64,000 bases of DNA from the sequence record ON528729; one strand, 5' to 3'. The position numbers were made by a program, and so were the translations under genes. Position 1 is the stretch's first letter, and the number at the start of each line of letters is the position of its first letter. The notes under the pieces are model-generated. The model was not told the origin of the DNA. It did not search any database and saw only the letters and a program-made list of their open reading frames with translations. Shown here one piece after another: positions 9,002-39,552 of the stretch. The DNA comes from Shigella phage ESh19.

Positions 9002-9014
9002 TGTCAAACTATTT

Positions 9015-11387
9015 TTATTCCCAACAGTTGGTATCTTCTGGGATGCTCTTAGTGTCAAAACCTAAAAACTTACCAACTTCGACGGGTGATACTTTATTCC
9101 AATCCAGATTAGAAAGCAAGAAGTTTTCTTTACGGCGTTTCTCAAAGTAATCTTTGAACTTGCTTTCAAGACGCTTCTTAGCATTATCCAGTACCTTTCT
9201 TGGCTTACAAGAACCTCTCATATTCCTGCGAATGGTATCAAGAGTGCTGGTGATATCTTTGTAAGCAACTGGTGCAGCAGTGTATGCCAAGCGTCCAAAC
9301 ATTGCTTCTATAGCCTCTTCATTCCCCTCTAAGAAGATAGTCTTCTTAAAGTCTTTACTGTACATGTGGCCTCTGGACTTACGTTTATCAGCAAACATAA
9401 AGTTTCGAGAAATCACATTACAATCAGTGATATCATGATTATTTGTCATGTACTGATATGTCAAGTAACGATGATACTCAATCCAATGAGTGTTATCAAT
9501 AAAATCTTTCAATACTTGTTCATTGACTTCTGTCCAATCTTCAGGAATCTTTTTCCAGTTGGCTTTACGGAAGACATAAACTGACTGTCCAGTTAACTCT
9601 GTCATCAACGTTGCAGCACGTTCTGGTGAACATGAGAAGATTCCACCAATCACTTCATCACTCTGTGCTTTGATATACAGTTGTGGTTCTTCAATCTCGT
9701 CAAAGTTCTCTTTAACCTCTGTATAGCGAATCATGTCGGTATTTGGACATATAAATGCTTTATACAGTTTTACAACACCACGTACAATAGTACGTTTTTC
9801 ATAGTGGTGTTCTTTAGATGACATTGTATGCACACTTAACAGACTTTTGTCAAGCATATGTAAATCTACAAACTCATCAAATTGCTGCTGACTGCTGAAC
9901 AAGAAAGCAATACCATTGTAGCGACGGAAGTTAGAGTCTTCCTGTTCACGGTCACGGCAAGCCCCACGGATAATCTGGTTTTTACCAGTTGTCTTTTCAG
10001 ACCCGTTCTTGTTTCGACGGTCATTGATAAGGAACAAGTAGTTGCTCAACTTATCTTTACTCATCGCTCCAAAGATACTAAACATTGCTGCATCTTGTGA
10101 ATAAGTCGCTGAAGTTGCCCGAATACGGTTCTCCAGACTGCTGTACTTGTAGTATGCTACAGGTTCATACAGATTACCAATATTAGGAACTGGATTACCA
10201 TCTTTATCAAGCCTCAAGTTACCCGCATCATCTTTCAAGAATGACGGAGAACCATCTGCTTCAGTTAACTGACCACGACGAATACCTAACAGTTTTTGTT
10301 CAAGCTTTTTCAAGTTCTGGCCTTGCCATTCCAGAGAATCTTGAACGTGATTAAAGATTTCACGAGCCTCTTTCCTCATGGTATCGTAAGCCTGTGCAGC
10401 ATCAATCAGAGTTGGCTTGTTAGCAATCTCTTTTACCACATCTTCTACGATTGTCTTAGTGATTTTCTTCACAGCTTCAACAATCTTAGTTTTGGTAGTC
10501 TCATTCATCTGCAATGCTTCACGAGATGCAGCAATAGCTACTGAACCAATTGGCATGTAGATGTTAACAAGGTCTACAGCACTACGGAAGAACTGAGGCA
10601 GAATGCTTGTAAACTCTGAACCAAGCAACTCACCCATTTCAACCGGATAAGCAATGTTACCCATGATTACATTGAAATGGACGCTGTTACTATTTGAGCG
10701 CCAGTTCTCTTTGTACTTCATTGCATCATAGACACCATCTTCACGAGAAATGGAAGTCATTGCTTCAAGAATGTCATAGTACTCAACATTACACTCTGGC
10801 TTAACTTTAAAGTACGAGTATACATTGCTCGCTTCTTCATGAAACTTGTTAATACGGTTATCAGATACCGCTACTCGAACAGCTAAACCATTTGGCTCTG
10901 TAGTTGGGTTAGTAGTCAACTTAGTTACTTGAGGGATACCATTCTCAAGGTAAACTGAGTATTTGTTAACTACACCATCAACATAGCTCGATACAGTGAA
11001 TGACTGAGCAATTGCAAATGGTGACTTTGAACCGATACCCATAGCACCAATGTAGTCATTTGAATCGTTCTTTGTGGATTCTCCATAGGTCATGTAAAGT
11101 TTCATAACTTTTTCATGAGTCAGCCCTGTACCAAAGTCACGAACTTCAAAGAATGGTTCAAAACGAGTTGGTAAGTGAACCAAGAAAGGTTTATCAACAT
11201 TACCAGAATCAATGTGAGCATCTACTGCGTTACATGATAACTCACGAATTACAGCACGTTCTTTATATGTGTAAACACCTGAGCTTAGAAGACTGAACAT
11301 TTCAGGTGTCATCTTAATTTGAGCCTGAGAGGTTTCCAGTGTACTTGAGCTTTTAATTACCGTTGCGTGGTCATTTACCATGCGCAT
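9015..11387 (-). CDS. rIIA: rIIA protein (GHKL ATPase-like N-terminal domain)
   Basis: N-terminal RAVIRELSCNAVDAH and DYIGAMGIGSKSPF blocks match remembered T4 rIIA / HATPase N-box and G-boxes. Confidence 0.85.
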   Translation of the reverse strand: MRMVNDHATVIKSSSTLETSQAQIKMTPEMFSLLSSGVYTYKERAVIRELSCNAVDAHIDSGNVDKPFLVHLPTRFEPFFEVRDFGTGLTHEKVMKLYMTYGESTKNDSNDYIGAMGIGSKSPFAIAQSFTVSSYVDGVVNKYSVYLENGIPQVTKLTTNPTTEPNGLAVRVAVSDNRINKFHEEASNVYSYFKVKPECNVEYYDILEAMTSISREDGVYDAMKYKENWRSNSNSVHFNVIMGNIAYPVEMGELLGSEFTSILPQFFRSAVDLVNIYMPIGSVAIAASREALQMNETTKTKIVEAVKKITKTIVEDVVKEIANKPTLIDAAQAYDTMRKEAREIFNHVQDSLEWQGQNLKKLEQKLLGIRRGQLTEADGSPSFLKDDAGNLRLDKDGNPVPNIGNLYEPVAYYKYSSLENRIRATSATYSQDAAMFSIFGAMSKDKLSNYLFLINDRRNKNGSEKTTGKNQIIRGACRDREQEDSNFRRYNGIAFLFSSQQQFDEFVDLHMLDKSLLSVHTMSSKEHHYEKRTIVRGVVKLYKAFICPNTDMIRYTEVKENFDEIEEPQLYIKAQSDEVIGGIFSCSPERAATLMTELTGQSVYVFRKANWKKIPEDWTEVNEQVLKDFIDNTHWIEYHRYLTYQYMTNNHDITDCNVISRNFMFADKRKSRGHMYSKDFKKTIFLEGNEEAIEAMFGRLAYTAAPVAYKDITSTLDTIRRNMRGSCKPRKVLDNAKKRLESKFKDYFEKRRKENFLLSNLDWNKVSPVEVGKFLGFDTKSIPEDTNCWE

Positions 11388-11420
11388 AAGAATATCTCCT
11401 TAGTTGTCGATGTGGCAAAC

Positions 11421-11449
11421 TATATAATTTTATAGATGCCACTGTCAAG
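11421..11449 (-). promoter_or_regulatory. candidate sigma70-type promoter upstream of rIIA overlapping an inverted repeat
   Basis: minus strand TTGACA-N17-TATATA; GTGGCA/TGCCAC inverted repeat (11412-11441) spans spacer and -10. Confidence 0.4.
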
Positions 11450-11629
11450 TTACTTTTTAAATTTCTTTCCAGTTCCATTGCAGTAAGGGCAACAATGTCC
11501 TATACCAACTAACCCAGAACCCTCACACCCATCACAAGGTTCAGTCTCTGAGAAGTACTTGCATAGTAACACTGCAATAGCAACAATACAACCGAGTGAA
11601 AGAACAATTTCTAACCAATAACCTTGCAT
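11450..11629 (-). CDS. small membrane-anchored protein with DnaJ-type zinc-finger repeats (59 aa; below ORF-track cutoff)
   Basis: hand-translated MQGYWLEIVLSLGCIVAIAVLLCKYFSETEPCDGCEGSGLVGIGHCCPYCNGTGKKFKK; two CxxCxGxG repeats; SD GGAGA 6 nt upstream. Confidence 0.35.
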   Translation of the reverse strand: MQGYWLEIVLSLGCIVAIAVLLCKYFSETEPCDGCEGSGLVGIGHCCPYCNGTGKKFKK

Positions 11630-11958
11630 ACCTTGTCTCCTATAGTTCTGAATAGGACAAAACTCCTGTCATGGACAATACTCGAAGATACTGCAAAACT
11701 ATTCTCAAGTATCTTTTTGTTTGGATTGTAAAATTCTTCTTGAAACAAATCAAGAGCTTCTTGATGGTTCTGTGGAAGACCTTTGATATAAACCTTCAAA
11801 GTAACCGTTGTATAAATCTCAGAAGCTAACTCTGATTGTGCTGCTTGAAACAGTTCATTGATAAACTTATGACCATCTTCATGTCGCTTGATGTTTTCCC
11901 AACGTTCTTCAATGATTAAATTAACATTCATCTGTTTAATTTTCATAGTAATCTCCAC
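11611..11958 (-). CDS. hypothetical protein (115 aa)
   Basis: ORF after terminator, SD present. Confidence 0.5.
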   Translation of the reverse strand: MEITMKIKQMNVNLIIEERWENIKRHEDGHKFINELFQAAQSELASEIYTTVTLKVYIKGLPQNHQEALDLFQEEFYNPNKKILENSFAVSSSIVHDRSFVLFRTIGDKVCKVIG

Positions 11959-11968
11959 AAATTAAAAA

Positions 11969-11984
11969 GGCTCCTACGGGAGCC
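11969..11984 (-). terminator. rho-independent terminator after Nampt gene (GGCUCC-CGUA-GGAGCC + U-run)
   Basis: stem-loop followed by TTTTTAATTT on minus strand. Confidence 0.6.
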
Positions 11985-11999
11985 TCTTATCATACTGTT

Positions 12000-13826
12000 T
12001 TAAAGTTGCTTGTCAATAGTATTTCGAACATCACGCAGGTTAACGTAACCATAAGGTTGCGAGTTACTAAATACCAGTTTCAAAGCACTATGACAATTGT
12101 CAATTGCACCTTCAAACTCTGCAAAGCCAAAACCATCTACAGCTACTAGCTTGTCACCATCCCACATAGGGACGACTCCACCAAAAGCAGACTTCTTAAG
12201 ACCACTGTCAGTTTTAGGGTCTTTAGCCAGCATAATTTCTTGACCATCCATCTGTGCAAGAGTTGCTTTAACAGCAAATGCAAATGTGTCACGAGTCAGG
12301 TACTGATAGGTGTATGAGCCTACACCAAACACTACGTTAGAACTTGCAAAACCTTTATCAGCAAGACGTGACAGAATCTCATTAGCCCTTTCCAGAGTGA
12401 TAGAATCACCGTAGATTAGTCCAATGTGCTCATCCAGTACTTTGTACCCTTTGGAGTTAACAGTGCCACCAAAGATGTTATACAGCGTGTGGATAGCTCC
12501 ATCAATTTCTGCTGTTAACATACGCTTCACAGTAAACTGTCCAGTTTTCTGAGCGGTAATCAGGTTGATTGTATCAATATAATCAAAATCTTCATTTTCA
12601 GCAACCATCTCATATCCTTCAGAGATTAACCAAGCAGAGAACCCAAAACCAATATCAGACATTTCACAATTCAAGATTGTGTCATGCAGATGGGTATTAT
12701 CTGGTGCAAGACCTTTCATGTGCTTGTAGAACATTGACTTAGCAGTTTCCCATTCAACGGCTTTGTAACCTGTAACAATGTGAACAGGGTCTCCAGAGTC
12801 TGGACGAATTACCAACTTACCATCACGATTCAGAATTACATTACGTAGCTCTGGCAGAATCTCTGTAACAGTACGCCAGAAGTTGTAAGTATCTGAAACA
12901 ACACTTGCAATACCAGTTGGATATACGTCTACCAGTAAATGCTCAAAGGTTTTAACCTCACCACGCCAACGTTTTGCATCCAGCAAGCTATCAGACCGCA
13001 TGATGTACTGTGAATGAATATCTTCCTCTGACAAGTCTTTCATATTCCATGAAATGTTTGCGCACATCACAGAGTGTTCAGTAGCTGGTACAGAGTTGCC
13101 GATATCACTTACTTCCATAAACTGACCATAAGAACGTTTAGCAGTGTAGACAGCAGGGAAGCTGTCAGTACCTTTAAAGCTTGTCAGGTGTCCTACTGCG
13201 TTAAACGCATCATCTGTGAAGCCAGACATGCCACGCATTGCAAAGTCATGACACTGCCAAGGTAAATGGGAGTCGTTGTCACAGGTTAAATCAGCCCATT
13301 GCTTACAAATACGTTTGTAATGCAGTGCAATAGTTGCAATCGTACAAGCTTTCCAGATTTCAGCAGAGAAAGCATCTTCAAGGTAACCAGCTACCCAATG
13401 GAATCCCTCTACAGTATTTTTGAAGACAATCATCGGGACACGCATAGGGACAATTGTACCTTCCTCTACAGAGTAGACTTCAACAGGTAGGTAACCCAAG
13501 TCATGAAGTTCTTCCCAATGTTGACGACCAATAGTATCTGCACCAAGGACACCATTCATGATTTCCAAGATTTCGTCAATGGCTTCTTTCTTATCACGTT
13601 CAAAGAACGTTGCATTCCAGTGGTCTACCAGATAGTCTTTTACAAAACGCTGAATACCAAAAGCTACAACACCATCAATCTCTAACGGAGAGTTAAACCA
13701 TTTATCTCCACGAGGTGTTAAGTTCAACATAAGATACTGTGTAGCATCTGGATACTGATAGATATGACCCGCTTTATAAGCATCTGCATTAAGACCTGCT
13801 GGTACTGCATAGATTGATTTAGTCAT
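12000..13826 (-). CDS. nadV: nicotinamide phosphoribosyltransferase-family enzyme (Nampt/NadV-like; possibly nicotinamide ADP-ribose transferase)
   Basis: blocks YKAGHIYQYP, HDFAMRG..SFKGTDS, PATEHS, VVSDTYNFW, IRPDSGDP, GVGSYTYQYLTRDT align with eukaryotic/bacterial Nampt; 608 aa, longer than canonical ~490 aa. Confidence 0.8.
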   Translation of the reverse strand: MTKSIYAVPAGLNADAYKAGHIYQYPDATQYLMLNLTPRGDKWFNSPLEIDGVVAFGIQRFVKDYLVDHWNATFFERDKKEAIDEILEIMNGVLGADTIGRQHWEELHDLGYLPVEVYSVEEGTIVPMRVPMIVFKNTVEGFHWVAGYLEDAFSAEIWKACTIATIALHYKRICKQWADLTCDNDSHLPWQCHDFAMRGMSGFTDDAFNAVGHLTSFKGTDSFPAVYTAKRSYGQFMEVSDIGNSVPATEHSVMCANISWNMKDLSEEDIHSQYIMRSDSLLDAKRWRGEVKTFEHLLVDVYPTGIASVVSDTYNFWRTVTEILPELRNVILNRDGKLVIRPDSGDPVHIVTGYKAVEWETAKSMFYKHMKGLAPDNTHLHDTILNCEMSDIGFGFSAWLISEGYEMVAENEDFDYIDTINLITAQKTGQFTVKRMLTAEIDGAIHTLYNIFGGTVNSKGYKVLDEHIGLIYGDSITLERANEILSRLADKGFASSNVVFGVGSYTYQYLTRDTFAFAVKATLAQMDGQEIMLAKDPKTDSGLKKSAFGGVVPMWDGDKLVAVDGFGFAEFEGAIDNCHSALKLVFSNSQPYGYVNLRDVRNTIDKQL

Positions 13827-35831: not shown

Positions 35832-35892
35832 TAGTGTTGACAAGGTGCTCATGGAAGAGTACCTTATACTATATATTATATAGGAGACTTGT

Positions 35893-38595: not shown

Positions 38596-38656
38596 TTGAC
38601 ATGAGTAACCTGACGGGTATACTACCTATATAGAAAATTATATAGGAACCCGTCAG
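38596..38656 (+). promoter_or_regulatory. sigma70-type promoter with nested inverted repeats (operator-like)
   Basis: TTGACA(38596-38601)-N16-TATACT(38618-38623); outer IR CTGACGGGT/ACCCGTCAG (38610-38618, 38648-38656), inner palindrome CCTATATA/TATATAGG. Confidence 0.5.
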
Positions 38657-38673
38657 AAACCTCGGAGGTGTTT

Positions 38674-39056: not shown

Positions 39057-39260
39057 ATGAAGAAGAACATCTGTAGAACAGACTATGGTGAAGTGGTCGA
39101 TGATGACGGAGTAGTTATTTACAGAGTTTGGGCTAATGATTTTGCAACCGTTGTAGAGTCTTTAGATAACTACATCAATGGGACTCGTGAAAACGTCAGA
39201 GCAACTAATCTTGATTCGTTAATAGACACTTCTCGAAAACGGAGAAAGAAAGATGAATGA
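39057..39260 (+). CDS. hypothetical protein (67 aa)
   Basis: ORF. Confidence 0.4.
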   Translation: MKKNICRTDYGEVVDDDGVVIYRVWANDFATVVESLDNYINGTRENVRATNLDSLIDTSRKRRKKDE

Positions 39261-39552
39261 AGTCTTTGACCCATATGCACCTCAAGATTCTTGGGAGGCT
39301 GATAGAGAGGCTGAAATGGAGAGTTATGTCTGTCCAATGGATATAGAAGAGATGAAAGACTTTGTATCTTTCAGATTCTCTAAAGAGATTGAGAAGCTAA
39401 AACTTTCTCAGGCTCAAGTAGCAACTGTTTGTGAAATCTCACAGAGTCGTGTGTCAAATATCATTAACGACCCTCAAAAGATTTCTTTAGAGTACATGCT
39501 TAATGCTTGTACAAAACTTGGTGTAAATTTTAACTTAAGGCTGGCAGATTAA
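39253..39552 (+). CDS. putative HTH DNA-binding protein (99 aa)
   Basis: LSQAQVATVCEISQSRVSNIIN resembles XRE-type helix-turn-helix. Confidence 0.4.
   Translation: MNEVFDPYAPQDSWEADREAEMESYVCPMDIEEMKDFVSFRFSKEIEKLKLSQAQVATVCEISQSRVSNIINDPQKISLEYMLNACTKLGVNFNLRLAD

What the first reader, a model, noticed from the sequence alone, without database searches (positions are those of the whole stretch)
11412..11629. Unannotated membrane-anchored DnaJ-type zinc-finger miniprotein with promoter/operator upstream of rIIA
A 59 aa ORF missed by the 60 aa cutoff encodes an N-terminal TM helix followed by two CxxCxGxG repeats (CDGCEGSG, CPYCNGTG), the DnaJ zinc-finger signature, with a GGAGA SD. Immediately downstream on the transcript is a TTGACA-N17-TATATA promoter for rIIA, embedded in a GTGGCA/TGCCAC inverted repeat.
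Basis: seen in the sequence. Interest (0 to 1): 0.45.

Follow-up and report, generated by a model that had tools for sequence, protein, structure and literature searches.

The report
Membrane zinc-knuckle miniprotein upstream of rIIA
This is a real, conserved 59-residue phage gene for a membrane-anchored protein with one DnaJ/anti-TRAP-type zinc knuckle, sitting just before rIIA; it is already catalogued in related phages with no known function, and the "operator" after it is better read as a promoter-plus-hairpin cassette of a kind known from T4-like phages.

Summary
The window is a Mooglevirus (Ounavirinae, Felix O1 relatives). The ORF at 11450-11629 (-) is real. It is under purifying selection (dN/dS 0.03-0.29) and matches PHROG 3931 over its full length (E 3e-32). 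It lies immediately upstream of rIIA in every Ounavirinae lineage examined.

It is not unannotated. Relatives list it as "hypothetical protein", "membrane protein" or "dnaJ: chaperone protein". It is Felix O1 gp131, named a holin candidate in 2010. Its SUSP1 orthologue scored "Not Fit" in a CRISPRi-ART screen.

The protein has an N-terminal transmembrane helix and two CxxCxGxG motifs, which can form only one Zn(Cys)4 centre. The best fold match is anti-TRAP (rmsd 0.8-1.2 Å over 30 residues). It fails the Pfam/NCBIfam thresholds for DnaJ and anti-TRAP.

The hexamers persist across lineages whose spacers differ, and Felixounavirus has lost the element.

The inverted repeat is part of a 31-nt hairpin (-13.3 kcal/mol, z -5.9) with two compensatory pairs. 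Seven such promoter-hairpin cassettes occur in the window, with the PeSL layout of T4-like phages. An operator is possible but less likely.

Function is unknown. My best guess is a membrane-tethered protein-binding module linked to rII.

The parts
11636..11640 (-). Shine-Dalgarno GGAGA of the miniprotein gene, 6 nt before the ATG; it lies inside the 3' end of the upstream gene
   Evidence: sequence
11450..11629 (-). Miniprotein CDS, 59 aa plus stop (PHROG 3931; orthologue of Felix O1 gp131 and SUSP1 agp080)
   Evidence: dN/dS 0.03-0.29
11552..11620 (-). Codons 4-26: the single transmembrane helix. YWxExxLSLG and LLCKY are invariant within the Felix/Moogle/Susp lineages.
   Evidence: helix 4-28; KD 2.53
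11468..11536 (-). Codons 32-54: CxxCxGxG-x7-CxxCxGxG, predicted to form a single Zn(Cys)4 knuckle. C32, C35, C47, C50, G37, G39, P48, G52 and G54 are invariant across genera.
11443..11448 (-). -35 hexamer TTGACA of the rIIA promoter, 1 nt after the stop codon
11419..11424 (-). -10 hexamer TATAGT (18-nt spacer); the alternative is TATATA at 11421-11426 (16-nt spacer)
   Evidence: TATAGT at N18 is kept in ESh21, L012 and L043
11412..11442 (-). 31-nt stem-loop filling the spacer and covering the -10: GTGGCA-T-CTATA-AAATTA-TATAG-TT-TGCCAC
   Evidence: 2 compensatory pairs, 2 G-U changes, 100% of cells paired
11396..11401 (-). Shine-Dalgarno AAGGAG of rIIA
9015..11387 (-). rIIA (790 aa), the invariable downstream neighbour
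11611..11946 (-). Upstream 111-aa gene (PHROG 4262, unknown function). Its last 19 nt overlap the start of the miniprotein gene, so translational coupling is likely. The true start is ATG 11946, not GTG 11958.
11965..12016 (-). Upstream promoter/terminator cassette. TTGACA-N16-TATGAT is followed at once by a 10-bp GC-rich hairpin and a T-run. This is the likely promoter for the 111-aa gene and the miniprotein gene.

Best explanation
The ORF is a conserved accessory gene of Ounavirinae phages (PHROG 3931).

Protein. It encodes a bitopic inner-membrane protein. A 4-residue N-terminus probably faces the periplasm. One TM helix follows. About 35 C-terminal residues in the cytoplasm fold into a single Zn(Cys)4 knuckle of the DnaJ/anti-TRAP type. 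I propose it is a membrane-tethered protein-binding module. It is made together with RIIA/RIIB and acts in, or alongside, that membrane-associated anti-exclusion module. It is dispensable in laboratory hosts.

Expression. The gene is probably transcribed from the promoter at 12016-11989. It is probably translated by coupling to the 111-aa gene that overlaps it by 19 nt.

Intergenic element. The 63 nt behind the gene are a composite promoter/stem-loop cassette of the PeSL type. The cassette gives rIIA its own sigma70 promoter. Its hairpin exists only in read-through RNA from upstream, because initiation at this promoter would start 3' of the hairpin. The hairpin would therefore attenuate, insulate or process upstream transcripts.

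Status of each step.
- Shown: coding status, conservation, synteny, helix plus zinc-knuckle architecture, conserved promoter hexamers, conserved hairpin, repeated cassette layout.
- Inferred: N-out/C-in topology, zinc binding, translational coupling, activity of the promoter and the hairpin.
- Speculative: the rII-linked partner or function.
For: Gene.
- dN/dS is 0.03-0.29.
- The PHROG 3931 match is full-length, E 3e-32.
- 257 phage records carry at least 80% of the ORF.
- Orthologues with the same architecture occur in Kolesnikvirus phiEa21-4 gp117, Pectobacterium phage Arno18 orf147 and Yersinia phage P778 ORF109. They match PHROG 3931 at E 2.5e-18 to 5e-10.

Synteny.
- In every locus read, the gene is the immediate 5' neighbour of rIIA, with gaps of 17-67 nt.
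- Its other neighbours vary. The 111-aa gene is absent in Arno18 and P778.

Architecture.
- AF2 gives a helix over residues 4-28 plus a knuckle, pLDDT 75.
- The best Foldseek hits are anti-TRAP 2bx9/3ld0: rmsd 0.8-1.2 Å over 30 residues, 33% identity, probability 0.99. DnaJA2, BSD2 and the DnaJ cysteine-rich domain (CRD) follow.
- The profile hits the DnaJ CRD 1exk at E 6.7e-5.
- Only the four Cys, the Gly residues and P48 are invariant across genera.

Dispensability.
- SUSP1 agp080 scored 'Not Fit' while rIIA scored 'Semi-Fit' (PMC11879866, supplementary file 16).
- Frameshifted alleles exist in isolated phages.

rII biology.
- Ounavirinae rIIA/B counter RexAB (SUSP1; PMC11879866).
- They also counter QatABCD (Bas63; bioRxiv 10.1101/2024.10.10.617714).

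Cassette.
- TTGACA with N17-18 and a TAnnnT hexamer is kept in lineages with unrelated spacers: WIN, ESh21, L012, L014/L041, L039 and phiEa21-4.
- The hairpin has z -5.9, with 2 compensatory pairs and 2 G-U changes on the sense strand.
- Unrelated hairpins sit at the same place in L012 and L014/L041.
- 7 of 15 TTGACA+TAnnnT sites in the window fold at or below -12.7 kcal/mol. The background 5th percentile is -12.1.
- All seven lie in short gaps, with the stop codon 1-7 nt before the -35 (at the 12016 cassette the -35 overlaps the end of the upstream gene) and the next ATG 56-80 nt after it.
Against: - There is no experimental evidence for expression, zinc binding, topology or any partner.
- The charge distribution does not settle the topology. 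The 15 residues after the helix carry a net charge of -3 in this phage.
- Synteny with rIIA could reflect shared descent in one subfamily rather than shared function.
- Analogous miniproteins elsewhere (P0084, P0087) sit in small-gene arrays without rIIA.
- The hairpin has no U-tract, so it is not a canonical intrinsic terminator.
- L039 keeps the promoter without a hairpin.
- Felixounavirus, Arno18 and P778 lack the promoter altogether. The cassette is therefore not essential to the module.
- The covariation rests on only four distinct sequences. The shuffle control reached the observed value in 16 of 500 trials.
Confidence: 0.5

Rival explanations
1. The miniprotein is the missing holin (or an antiholin or lysis regulator) of Ounavirinae. 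On this reading it is a small single-TMD protein with a charged C-terminus that controls membrane permeabilisation.
For: - Felix O1 has no identified holin, and gp131 (this family) was listed among five candidates (PMC3185647).
- The holin was still unidentified in 2025 (PMC11879866, supplement 1).
- The protein has one strong TMD and a KKFKK tail.
- It sits next to rIIA, which is annotated as a 'lysis inhibitor'.
Against: - The gene lies in the nucleotide-metabolism/rII operon, far from the endolysin.
- Its Felix O1 neighbours (ORFs 129, 130 and 1) peak at 25 min, not in the late class.
- The C-terminal tail is acidic in phiEa21-4 (GEDD), so the basic tail is not conserved.
- A conserved zinc knuckle is, to my knowledge, not a holin feature.
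- SUSP1 agp080 scored 'Not Fit'. This is weak evidence, because that screen missed lysis genes generally.
- Frameshifted alleles occur in viable isolates.
Confidence: 0.1
2. The inverted repeat is a protein operator. A dimeric regulator, for example the phage HTH_3 protein encoded at 39253-39552 (+), would bind the CTATA...TATAG palindrome over the -10 and repress rIIA transcription.
For: - CTATA-N(0-10)-TATAG occurs three times in the window against 0.67 expected (0 of 100 shuffles reach 3). Each copy lies beside a TTGACA promoter, and the exact 9-mer ATTATATAG is shared by all three.
- The inner palindrome is the best conserved part of the element across lineages.
- The phage encodes an XRE-type HTH protein (HTH_3, E 2.8e-8).
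- Terminator palindromes can double as transcription-factor sites (bioRxiv 10.64898/2026.08.19.745784, section list).
Against: - Half-site spacing differs between the three sites (15, 16 and 20 bp). In L012 the palindrome is a 10-bp stem with a 4-nt loop.
- The palindrome's position relative to the -10 differs: inside the spacer here, downstream of the -10 at the other two sites.
- The outer stem changes by compensatory substitutions, and the inner stem by G-U-compatible changes on the sense strand only. Both fit base pairing better than protein recognition.
- TATAG(T/G) is simply the usual -10 in these phages (Felix O1 P41 and P45).
- Hairpins of unrelated sequence overlap four other promoters.
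Confidence: 0.2
3. The miniprotein acts on a host target independently of rII. The knuckle would bind a membrane-proximal host protein such as FtsH (as plant FIP does) or the DnaK/DnaJ system, modulating host proteolysis or chaperoning during infection.
For: - Arabidopsis FIP has the same layout (membrane anchor plus two CXXCXGXG repeats, no J domain) and binds FtsH5 (PMC5915565).
- Anti-TRAP, the best fold match, is a pure protein-binding inhibitor.
- Related TM+knuckle miniproteins occur in other phage small-gene arrays without rIIA.
Against:
- The tight, subfamily-wide adjacency to rIIA is left unexplained.
- There are no interaction data.
Confidence: 0.2
4. The topology is the reverse (N-in/C-out). 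The CxxC pairs would then sit in the periplasm as disulfides or a thiol-disulfide oxidoreductase, as proposed for some plant DnaJ-like zinc-finger proteins.
For: - The flank after the helix is net negative (-3 to -4) in Mooglevirus, P0011 and P0012.
- From my own knowledge, untested here: isolated DnaJ-type fingers can show disulfide-isomerase activity in vitro.
Against: - The N-terminus has no Lys or Arg and carries a conserved Glu7, unlike a signal anchor.
- In most lineages examined a basic residue follows the helix (K24 in Felix O1/Mooglevirus, R in SUSP1 and L012, AKY in phiEa21-4); P0011 has Ser and L036 has Asn at this position.
- The CxxCxGxG geometry matches zinc sites, and zinc sites need a reducing compartment.
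Confidence: 0.08

Closest known systems
PHROG 3931 / Felix O1 gp131 (NP_945023, 'hypothetical membrane protein') / SUSP1 agp080
   Same: Same family. The HMM match is full-length (E 3e-32). The position before rIIA is the same. A protein 100% identical is encoded in Citrobacter phage BSwM KMM2.
   Different: Nothing structural differs. Felixounavirus members lack His45 and lack the promoter/hairpin behind the gene.
Anti-TRAP (RtpA) of Bacillus (PDB 2bx9, 3ld0)
   Same: Both are about 53-59 aa and have two CxxCxGxG motifs 6-7 residues apart forming one Zn(Cys)4 centre. This is the best structural match (rmsd 0.8-1.2 Å over 30 residues, 33% identity). Neither has a J domain.
   Different: Anti-TRAP is soluble and oligomerises through a C-terminal helix. 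This protein has an N-terminal TM helix and no C-terminal helix. Its scores against the sequence models are far below threshold (Pfam 9.6 bits against 32; NCBIfam 12.7 against 65).
DnaJ cysteine-rich domain (Pfam PF00684; PDB 1exk)
   Same: It carries the CxxCxGxG signature. The profile hits 1exk at E 6.7e-5 and DNAJA3 at 4e-4. Some Erwinia phage records already call the orthologue 'dnaJ: chaperone protein'.
   Different: It has two motifs rather than four, so one zinc centre rather than two. It has no J domain, G/F region or C-terminal substrate domains. The Pfam score is 15.6 bits against a cut-off of 32.7.
Arabidopsis FIP (FtsH5-interacting protein) and other membrane-anchored DnaJ-like zinc-finger proteins
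   Same: It shares the membrane anchor followed by a C4 finger with two CXXCXGXG repeats, without a J domain (PMC5915565).
   Different: FIP is eukaryotic, lies in the thylakoid, has a transit peptide and is longer. Homology was not tested here. Only the architecture is shared.
PeSL (promoter-early stem-loop) cassettes of T4-like phages RB49/phi1, PST and nt-1
   Same: The order is stop codon, sigma70-like promoter, a stem-loop between the boxes or over the -10 (with G-T pairs), SD, ATG. There are many copies per genome, in front of small early genes. They coincide with indel junctions (PMC2839356, PMC4122927).
   Different: The host phage belongs to Ounavirinae, not to the T4-like phages. The stems are not the G-run/C-run type. 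Terminator activity and recombination between copies have not been shown. The hairpin studied here lacks a U-tract.

Membership tests
PHROG 3931 | Significant full-length match to the family HMM | tested here: met
   E 3e-32, residues 1-59 on profile positions 1-59 of 59
DnaJ central cysteine-rich domain (PF00684) | Score at or above the Pfam gathering threshold | tested here: not met
   15.6 bits against 32.7; E 0.019
DnaJ central cysteine-rich domain (PF00684) | Four CxxCxGxG repeats forming two zinc centres | tested here: not met
   Only two repeats (C32-G39 and C47-G54), so only one centre is possible
DnaJ central cysteine-rich domain (PF00684) | CxxCxGxG signature with conserved Cys and Gly | tested here: met
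   C32, C35, G37, G39, C47, C50, G52 and G54 are invariant across nine sequences from different genera. The profile hits 1exk at E 6.7e-5.
DnaJ/Hsp40 chaperone | J domain with HPD motif | tested here: not met
   The protein is 59 aa. Residues 1-28 form a TM helix, and there is no J-domain hit.
Anti-TRAP (PF15777 / NF058604 RtpA) | Score above the curated thresholds | tested here: not met
   Pfam 9.6 bits against 32; NCBIfam 12.7 bits against 65
Anti-TRAP (PF15777 / NF058604 RtpA) | Single zinc knuckle fold built from two adjacent CxxCxGxG motifs | tested here: met
   Foldseek against 2bx9/3ld0/3lcz: rmsd 0.8-1.2 Å over 30 residues, probability 0.97-0.99, but E about 0.2-0.5. The model pLDDT is 75.
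Anti-TRAP (PF15777 / NF058604 RtpA) | C-terminal helix for trimer/dodecamer assembly; binding to TRAP | tested here: not met
   No C-terminal helix is present; the protein ends 5 residues after the knuckle. TRAP binding cannot be tested here.
Holin | Small protein with at least one TMD and a charged C-terminus | tested here: inconclusive
   The TMD is present. The tail is basic here (KKFKK) but acidic in phiEa21-4 (GEDD).
Holin | Late expression, or linkage to the endolysin | tested here: not met
   The gene lies between nadV and rIIA. Felix O1 ORFs 129, 130 and 1 peak at 25 min, not in the 60-min class; ORF131 itself was not assayed.
Holin | Triggers endolysin-dependent lysis | not testable with these tools
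   The only available data are that SUSP1 agp080 scored 'Not Fit' in CRISPRi-ART.
Sigma70-type promoter | -35 and -10 hexamers at 16-18 nt | tested here: met
   TTGACA-N18-TATAGT, an 11/12 match
Sigma70-type promoter | Hexamers conserved while the spacer diverges | tested here: met
   WIN, ESh21 and L012 have TATAGT at N18. L014/L041 and L039 have TAAAGT at N17. phiEa21-4 has TAGAAT at N18. All keep TTGACA.
Sigma70-type promoter | Mapped transcription start | not testable with these tools
   No transcript 5'-end data were found for any Ounavirinae phage.
PeSL promoter/stem-loop cassette | Order: stop codon, sigma70 promoter, overlapping stem-loop, SD, ATG | tested here: met
   compared with the description in PMC2839356
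PeSL promoter/stem-loop cassette | Multiple copies of the same layout in the genome | tested here: met
   Seven cassettes in 64 kb, at 9007-, 11448-, 12016-, 17817-, 28275-, 35837+ and 38596+. About 0.75 would be expected at the 5% background rate (my own arithmetic).
PeSL promoter/stem-loop cassette | Cassettes coincide with indel or shuffling junctions | tested here: inconclusive
   The element is present or absent between genera by a 34-nt difference. Homology to Moogle breaks exactly at the -35 of the 38596 cassette. Only these two cases were examined.
PeSL promoter/stem-loop cassette | The stem-loop terminates or attenuates upstream transcription | not testable with these tools
   There is no U-tract after this hairpin, and no Term-seq data exist.
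Repressor operator | Palindrome recurring at several promoters with fixed half-site spacing | tested here: not met
   The palindrome recurs at three promoters, but the spacing is 15, 16 or 20 bp and its position relative to the -10 differs.

The most novel reading that the evidence does not exclude
The miniprotein is a dedicated third component of the Ounavirinae rII module. As a membrane-tethered zinc knuckle it would recruit, stabilise or regulate RIIA/RIIB at the inner membrane, or would itself neutralise a membrane-acting defence of the RexAB/QatABCD type. That would explain why it is the only neighbour of rIIA kept in every lineage. A variant of this reading is that it is the long-sought Ounavirinae holin or antiholin.
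Probability: 0.15. Interest if true: 0.6.

Novelty: already known. Interest (0 to 1): 0.27.

Why it matters
As it stands the finding is ordinary. It is a catalogued hypothetical gene with a recognisable zinc motif, followed by a host-type promoter. Three points give it modest value.

1. rIIA/rIIB remain mechanistically unexplained after about 70 years. Ounavirinae rII genes have recently been shown to counter RexAB and QatABCD. A small membrane protein that is the one invariant neighbour of rIIA across the whole subfamily is a cheap candidate partner to test.

2. The holin of Felix O1-like phages is still unidentified, and this family was on the original candidate list.

3. Promoter/stem-loop cassettes of the PeSL type have, as far as I could find, been described only in T4-like phages. 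Their presence in an Ounavirinae genome would extend that regulatory and recombination device to another myovirus lineage.

Tried and rejected
- Distant homologues. A word-indexed profile search found only Ounavirinae clusters. The exhaustive profile search added only analogous TM+knuckle miniproteins and generic multi-repeat CxxCxGxG proteins. A metagenome scan added two loci.
- T4 rIIA.1, which occupies the same position in T4, is an unrelated soluble helical protein. No tblastn hit to RB49 was found at E <= 1, despite the old GenBank note on phiEa21-4 gp117.
- Rfam found nothing near threshold in 11300-12100. PADLOC gave no hit for the miniprotein. NCBIfam gave only sub-threshold DnaJ and RtpA hits.
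- The upstream 111-aa protein (PHROG 4262). AF2 gave pLDDT 62, and Foldseek against the PDB gave nothing significant (best E 0.15; an IF3-C-like beta-alpha-beta fold at TM about 0.45). No function could be drawn from it. A PADLOC SduA hit at E 0.0097 was judged to be noise.
- Intrinsic terminator reading of the hairpin: rejected as a canonical case because no T-run follows it.
- The positive-inside rule did not decide the topology.
- No transcript-end mapping for any Ounavirinae phage was found in the literature. The main text of the PhageMaP Bas63 paper does not mention the orthologue.
- The covariation count is based on only four distinct sequences and is suggestive, not decisive.
Full report
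WHERE THE WINDOW COMES FROM. An 801-base stretch around the finding is 99% identical to Citrobacter phages BSwM KMM4 and KMM2. It is 93-98% identical to Shigella phages Sf13-Sf19 and to Citrobacter phages Michonne and Moogle. The window is therefore a Mooglevirus, subfamily Ounavirinae, which contains the relatives of Salmonella phage Felix O1. On the minus strand the local gene order is ribose-phosphate pyrophosphokinase, nicotinamide phosphoribosyltransferase (nadV), a 111-aa gene, the 59-aa ORF, rIIA and rIIB.

THE OBSERVATION.
- The SD GGAGA is at 11640-11636, the ATG at 11629 and the stop TAA at 11452-11450.
- The product has a hydrophobic stretch at residues 5-23 (Kyte-Doolittle mean 2.53). 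It carries the motifs CDGCEGSG and CPYCNGTG.
- TTGACA lies at 11448-11443, GTGGCA at 11442-11437 and TGCCAC at 11417-11412.
- The rIIA SD is at 11401-11396 and the rIIA ATG at 11387.

Two details need correcting. First, TATATA is 16 nt from TTGACA, not 17. The best -10 is TATAGT at 18 nt, an 11/12 match. Second, the inverted repeat is part of a longer two-tier hairpin, GTGGCA-T-CTATA-AAATTA-TATAG-TT-TGCCAC. As RNA it folds at -13.3 kcal/mol, against -3.0 +/- 1.8 for shuffles, z -5.9.

IS THE ORF A GENE? Yes.
- tblastn finds it in 305 phage records, 257 of which carry at least 80% of its length.
- Thirteen pairwise comparisons give dN/dS of 0.03-0.29 at dS of 0.2-1.5.
- It matches PHROG 3931 over its whole length at E 3e-32.
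- Its start overlaps the last 19 nt of the upstream 111-aa gene in all Felix, Moogle and Susp lineages. This suggests translational coupling.

It is not unannotated.
- KPS64 gp2 is called 'membrane protein' and Mijalis 001 'putative cytoplasmic membrane protein'. Felix O1 ORF131 is 'hypothetical membrane protein'.
- Several Erwinia phage records call the orthologue 'dnaJ: chaperone protein'.
- A few records do miss it, for example vB_SflM_004.
- The Felix O1 genome paper lists gp131 among five possible holins (PMC3185647).
- In the genome-wide CRISPRi-ART screen of SUSP1, agp080 (this gene) scored 'Not Fit' at 1.05. The adjacent rIIA scored 'Semi-Fit' at 1.83 (PMC11879866, supplementary file 16).
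- A few isolates carry frameshifted copies. Either the gene is dispensable or these are homopolymer sequencing errors.

HOW FAR THE FAMILY REACHES. Profile searches of 5.8 billion and 1.8 billion proteins returned full-length relatives only from Ounavirinae-like phages.
- Reading the region before rIIA in Erwinia phage phiEa21-4 (Kolesnikvirus) revealed gp117. It is 54 aa, has the same architecture and matches PHROG 3931 at E 2.5e-18.
- Pectobacterium phage Arno18 orf147 and Yersinia phage P778 ORF109 are further members.
- Across nine sequences from different genera, only the initiator Met, the four motif cysteines, four glycines and Pro48 are invariant.
- The extra cysteines C23 and C46 are lineage-specific.
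- Within Felix, Moogle and Susp phages the periplasm-proximal half of the helix (YWxExxLSLG) is also invariant. The helix may therefore be more than an anchor.
- In every locus the gene is the immediate 5' neighbour of rIIA, at 17-67 nt. The genes on its other side vary: the 111-aa gene is absent in Arno18 and P778, and an extra 71-aa DUF7279 gene is present in some lineages.
- Analogous miniproteins (P0084, P0087) occur in small-gene arrays of other, unidentified phages without rIIA.

WHAT THE PROTEIN LOOKS LIKE. AlphaFold2 with a shallow alignment gives a helix over residues 4-28 followed by a small beta-knuckle, mean pLDDT 75.
- The best Foldseek matches in the PDB are Bacillus anti-TRAP (2bx9, 3ld0, 3lcz). 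The rmsd is 0.8-1.2 Å over 30 residues, identity 33% and probability 0.97-0.99, although E is only 0.2-0.5 because the domain is so small. DnaJA2, BSD2 and the DnaJ cysteine-rich domain follow.
- A profile of the family hits the DnaJ cysteine-rich domain 1exk at E 6.7e-5 and DNAJA3 at 4e-4.
- The curated models are not satisfied. PF00684 gives 15.6 bits against a cut-off of 32.7. Anti-TRAP gives 9.6 against 32 in Pfam and 12.7 against 65 in NCBIfam.
- With two motifs instead of four, the protein can form only one Zn(Cys)4 centre, as anti-TRAP does. There is no J domain.

So it works like a DnaJ/anti-TRAP zinc knuckle, but it is not a member of either family. The nearest architectural analogue I found is Arabidopsis FIP. 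FIP has a membrane anchor followed by two CXXCXGXG repeats and binds the FtsH5 protease (PMC5915565).

Topology is inferred, not shown. The four N-terminal residues carry no Lys or Arg. Glu7 is conserved within the Felix O1, Mooglevirus and Suspvirus lineages. A basic residue follows the helix in most lineages examined; P0011 (Ser) and L036 (Asn) are exceptions. A zinc site needs the reducing cytoplasm. All of this favours N-out/C-in. However, the flank after the helix is net negative in this phage, so the reverse orientation is not excluded.

THE INTERGENIC ELEMENT. I compared 16 distinct versions of the gap between the miniprotein gene and rIIA, plus phiEa21-4, Arno18 and P778.
- TTGACA followed at 17-18 nt by a TAnnnT hexamer is kept in lineages whose spacers are unrelated. 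WIN, ESh21, Silverhawkium and L012 have TATAGT. L014/L041 and L039 have TAAAGT. phiEa21-4 has TAGAAT, with TTGACA overlapping the stop codon.
- This is good comparative evidence for a functional host-type promoter for rIIA.
- Felixounavirus has only a 28-nt gap that begins with the relic TTTAACAG. It lacks the 34 nt that vB_SflM_004 still has, so it most simply lost the -10 and hairpin by deletion. Arno18 and P778 have no promoter either.
- rIIA is therefore co-transcribed with the miniprotein gene in several lineages and has an additional promoter of its own in others.

THE HAIRPIN.
- Among four distinct alignable versions, all 40 cells pair. Two outer-stem pairs change on both sides (U-A to A-U and C-G to U-A). 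Two inner-stem pairs change to G-U on the sense strand. The sample is small, and 16 of 500 shuffles reach the observed score.
- L012 and L014/L041 carry hairpins of different sequence at the same place: a 10-bp stem, and a 9-bp stem with the -10 in its loop. phiEa21-4 has an inverted repeat over the -35 plus a second GC hairpin. L039 has no hairpin.
- No T-run follows the hairpin, and no Rfam family matches it.
- A transcript started at this promoter would begin at about the 3' arm. The hairpin therefore exists only in read-through RNA from upstream.

THE SAME DESIGN RECURS IN THE WINDOW. Of 15 sites with TTGACA plus a TAnnnT hexamer at 16-18 nt, seven fold at or below -12.7 kcal/mol over the 48 nt from the -35 onward. 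The background 5th percentile is -12.1. All seven lie in short gaps. The stop codon of the upstream gene is 1-7 nt before the -35 (or the -35 overlaps the end of that gene, as at 12016). The next ATG is 56-80 nt after the -35.
- One cassette sits between rIIA and rIIB: TTGACA-GGGGCTGAAAAGCCCC-T-TAGAAT at 9007.
- Another sits in front of the 111-aa gene: a promoter followed directly by a terminator hairpin at 12016-11965.

This is the published anatomy of PeSLs, the promoter-early stem-loop cassettes of T4-like phages. [quoted passage not shown] They act as attenuators of upstream transcription and mark recombination junctions (PMC2839356, PMC4122927). In keeping with this, homology between this window and phage Moogle breaks exactly at the -35 of the 38596 cassette and resumes at the next start codon. 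A recent preprint reports that overlapping promoters and terminators are widespread in bacteria (bioRxiv 10.64898/2026.08.19.745784).

THE OPERATOR READING cannot be excluded.
- In its favour: the inner palindrome CTATA...TATAG occurs three times in the window against 0.67 expected, each time at a TTGACA promoter. The phage also encodes an XRE-type HTH protein at 39253-39552.
- Against it: the half-site spacing (15, 16 and 20 bp) and the position relative to the -10 differ between sites. TATAG(T/G) is simply the common -10 of these phages (Felix O1 P41 and P45). The compensatory and G-U changes fit base pairing better than protein recognition.

MECHANISM, AND HOW SURE I AM.
- Coding status, family membership and synteny: about 0.9.
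- One TM helix plus one zinc knuckle: about 0.85.
- A functional sigma70 promoter for rIIA: about 0.75.
- A PeSL-type hairpin rather than an operator: about 0.6.
- N-out/C-in topology: about 0.7.
- A protein-binding role tied to the rII module: about 0.25. This rests only on the invariant adjacency, the membrane location shared with RIIA/B, and the protein-binding nature of the closest folds.

Ounavirinae rIIA/B have been shown to counter RexAB and QatABCD (PMC11879866; bioRxiv 10.1101/2024.10.10.617714). This gives a direct assay for the miniprotein. The rivals are a host-directed binder of FtsH or DnaK, the unidentified Ounavirinae holin or antiholin, and a periplasmic thiol-active domain.

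VERDICT. It is an already catalogued, uncharacterised family whose DnaJ-like motif has been noticed by other annotators. The promoter is an ordinary host-type promoter embedded in a known kind of composite cassette. Interest is low to modest.

Noticed in passing
window 9007-, 12016-, 17817-, 28275-, 35837+, 38596+ (position of the first base of each TTGACA): Six further sigma70-like promoters carry an overlapping strong hairpin (-12.7 to -23.3 kcal/mol). All lie in short gaps with the layout stop, -35, stem-loop, -10, SD, ATG. This PeSL-like cassette family does not seem to have been described for Ounavirinae.
   Followed up: partly
window 11420-11435, 35869-35883, 38626-38645: There are three CTATA-N-TATAG palindromes sharing the exact 9-mer ATTATATAG, each next to a TTGACA promoter (3 observed against 0.67 expected). 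This could be a shared regulator site or only the family's preferred -10 plus its complement.
   Followed up: partly
window 39253-39552 (+): A 99-aa ORF has an XRE-type helix-turn-helix (Pfam HTH_3, E 2.8e-8). It is the third gene after the 38596 promoter cassette and is a candidate phage transcription regulator.
   Followed up: no
window 38596-38664 compared with L055 (Citrobacter phage Moogle) 1658-2055: Homology between the two phages stops exactly at the -35 TTGACA and resumes at the next gene start. Moogle has about 400 nt of different sequence there, rich in GGT(N)GGT-like short repeats. This looks like modular exchange at a promoter cassette.
   Followed up: partly
L004, L007 and other Felixounavirus loci, gap between the miniprotein gene and rIIA: Felixounavirus has a 28-nt gap that begins with TTTAACAG, a relic of the -35. 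It lacks the 34 nt carrying the -10 and hairpin that vB_SflM_004 (L005) still has. This is an apparent lineage-specific deletion of the rIIA promoter.
   Followed up: yes
proteins P0006-P0010 (phiWec177, NJ12, GE_vB_B3 and metagenomic contigs): Several copies of the miniprotein gene are frameshifted at different points around codons 22-40, one of them at the A-run encoding HKK. They are either sequencing errors or natural loss-of-function alleles.
   Followed up: no
window 11946-11958 (-): The mechanical ORF list starts the upstream gene at GTG 11958 (115 aa). That GTG is part of the SD (GTGGAGA). All annotated relatives start at ATG 11946 (111 aa).
   Followed up: yes
window 11611-11946 (-): The 111-aa PHROG 4262 protein has no recognisable family. 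Its AF2 model is of low confidence (pLDDT 62) with a beta-alpha-beta-alpha-beta topology. It gave only a weak PADLOC SduA/DUF4263 hit (E 0.0097). The gene is absent from Arno18 and P778.
   Followed up: partly
window 11965-12016 (-): The promoter TTGACA-N16-TATGAT overlaps the end of nadV and is followed directly by a terminator hairpin. A transcript started there would begin inside the 5' arm and so escape termination, while read-through from nadV would stop.
   Followed up: partly
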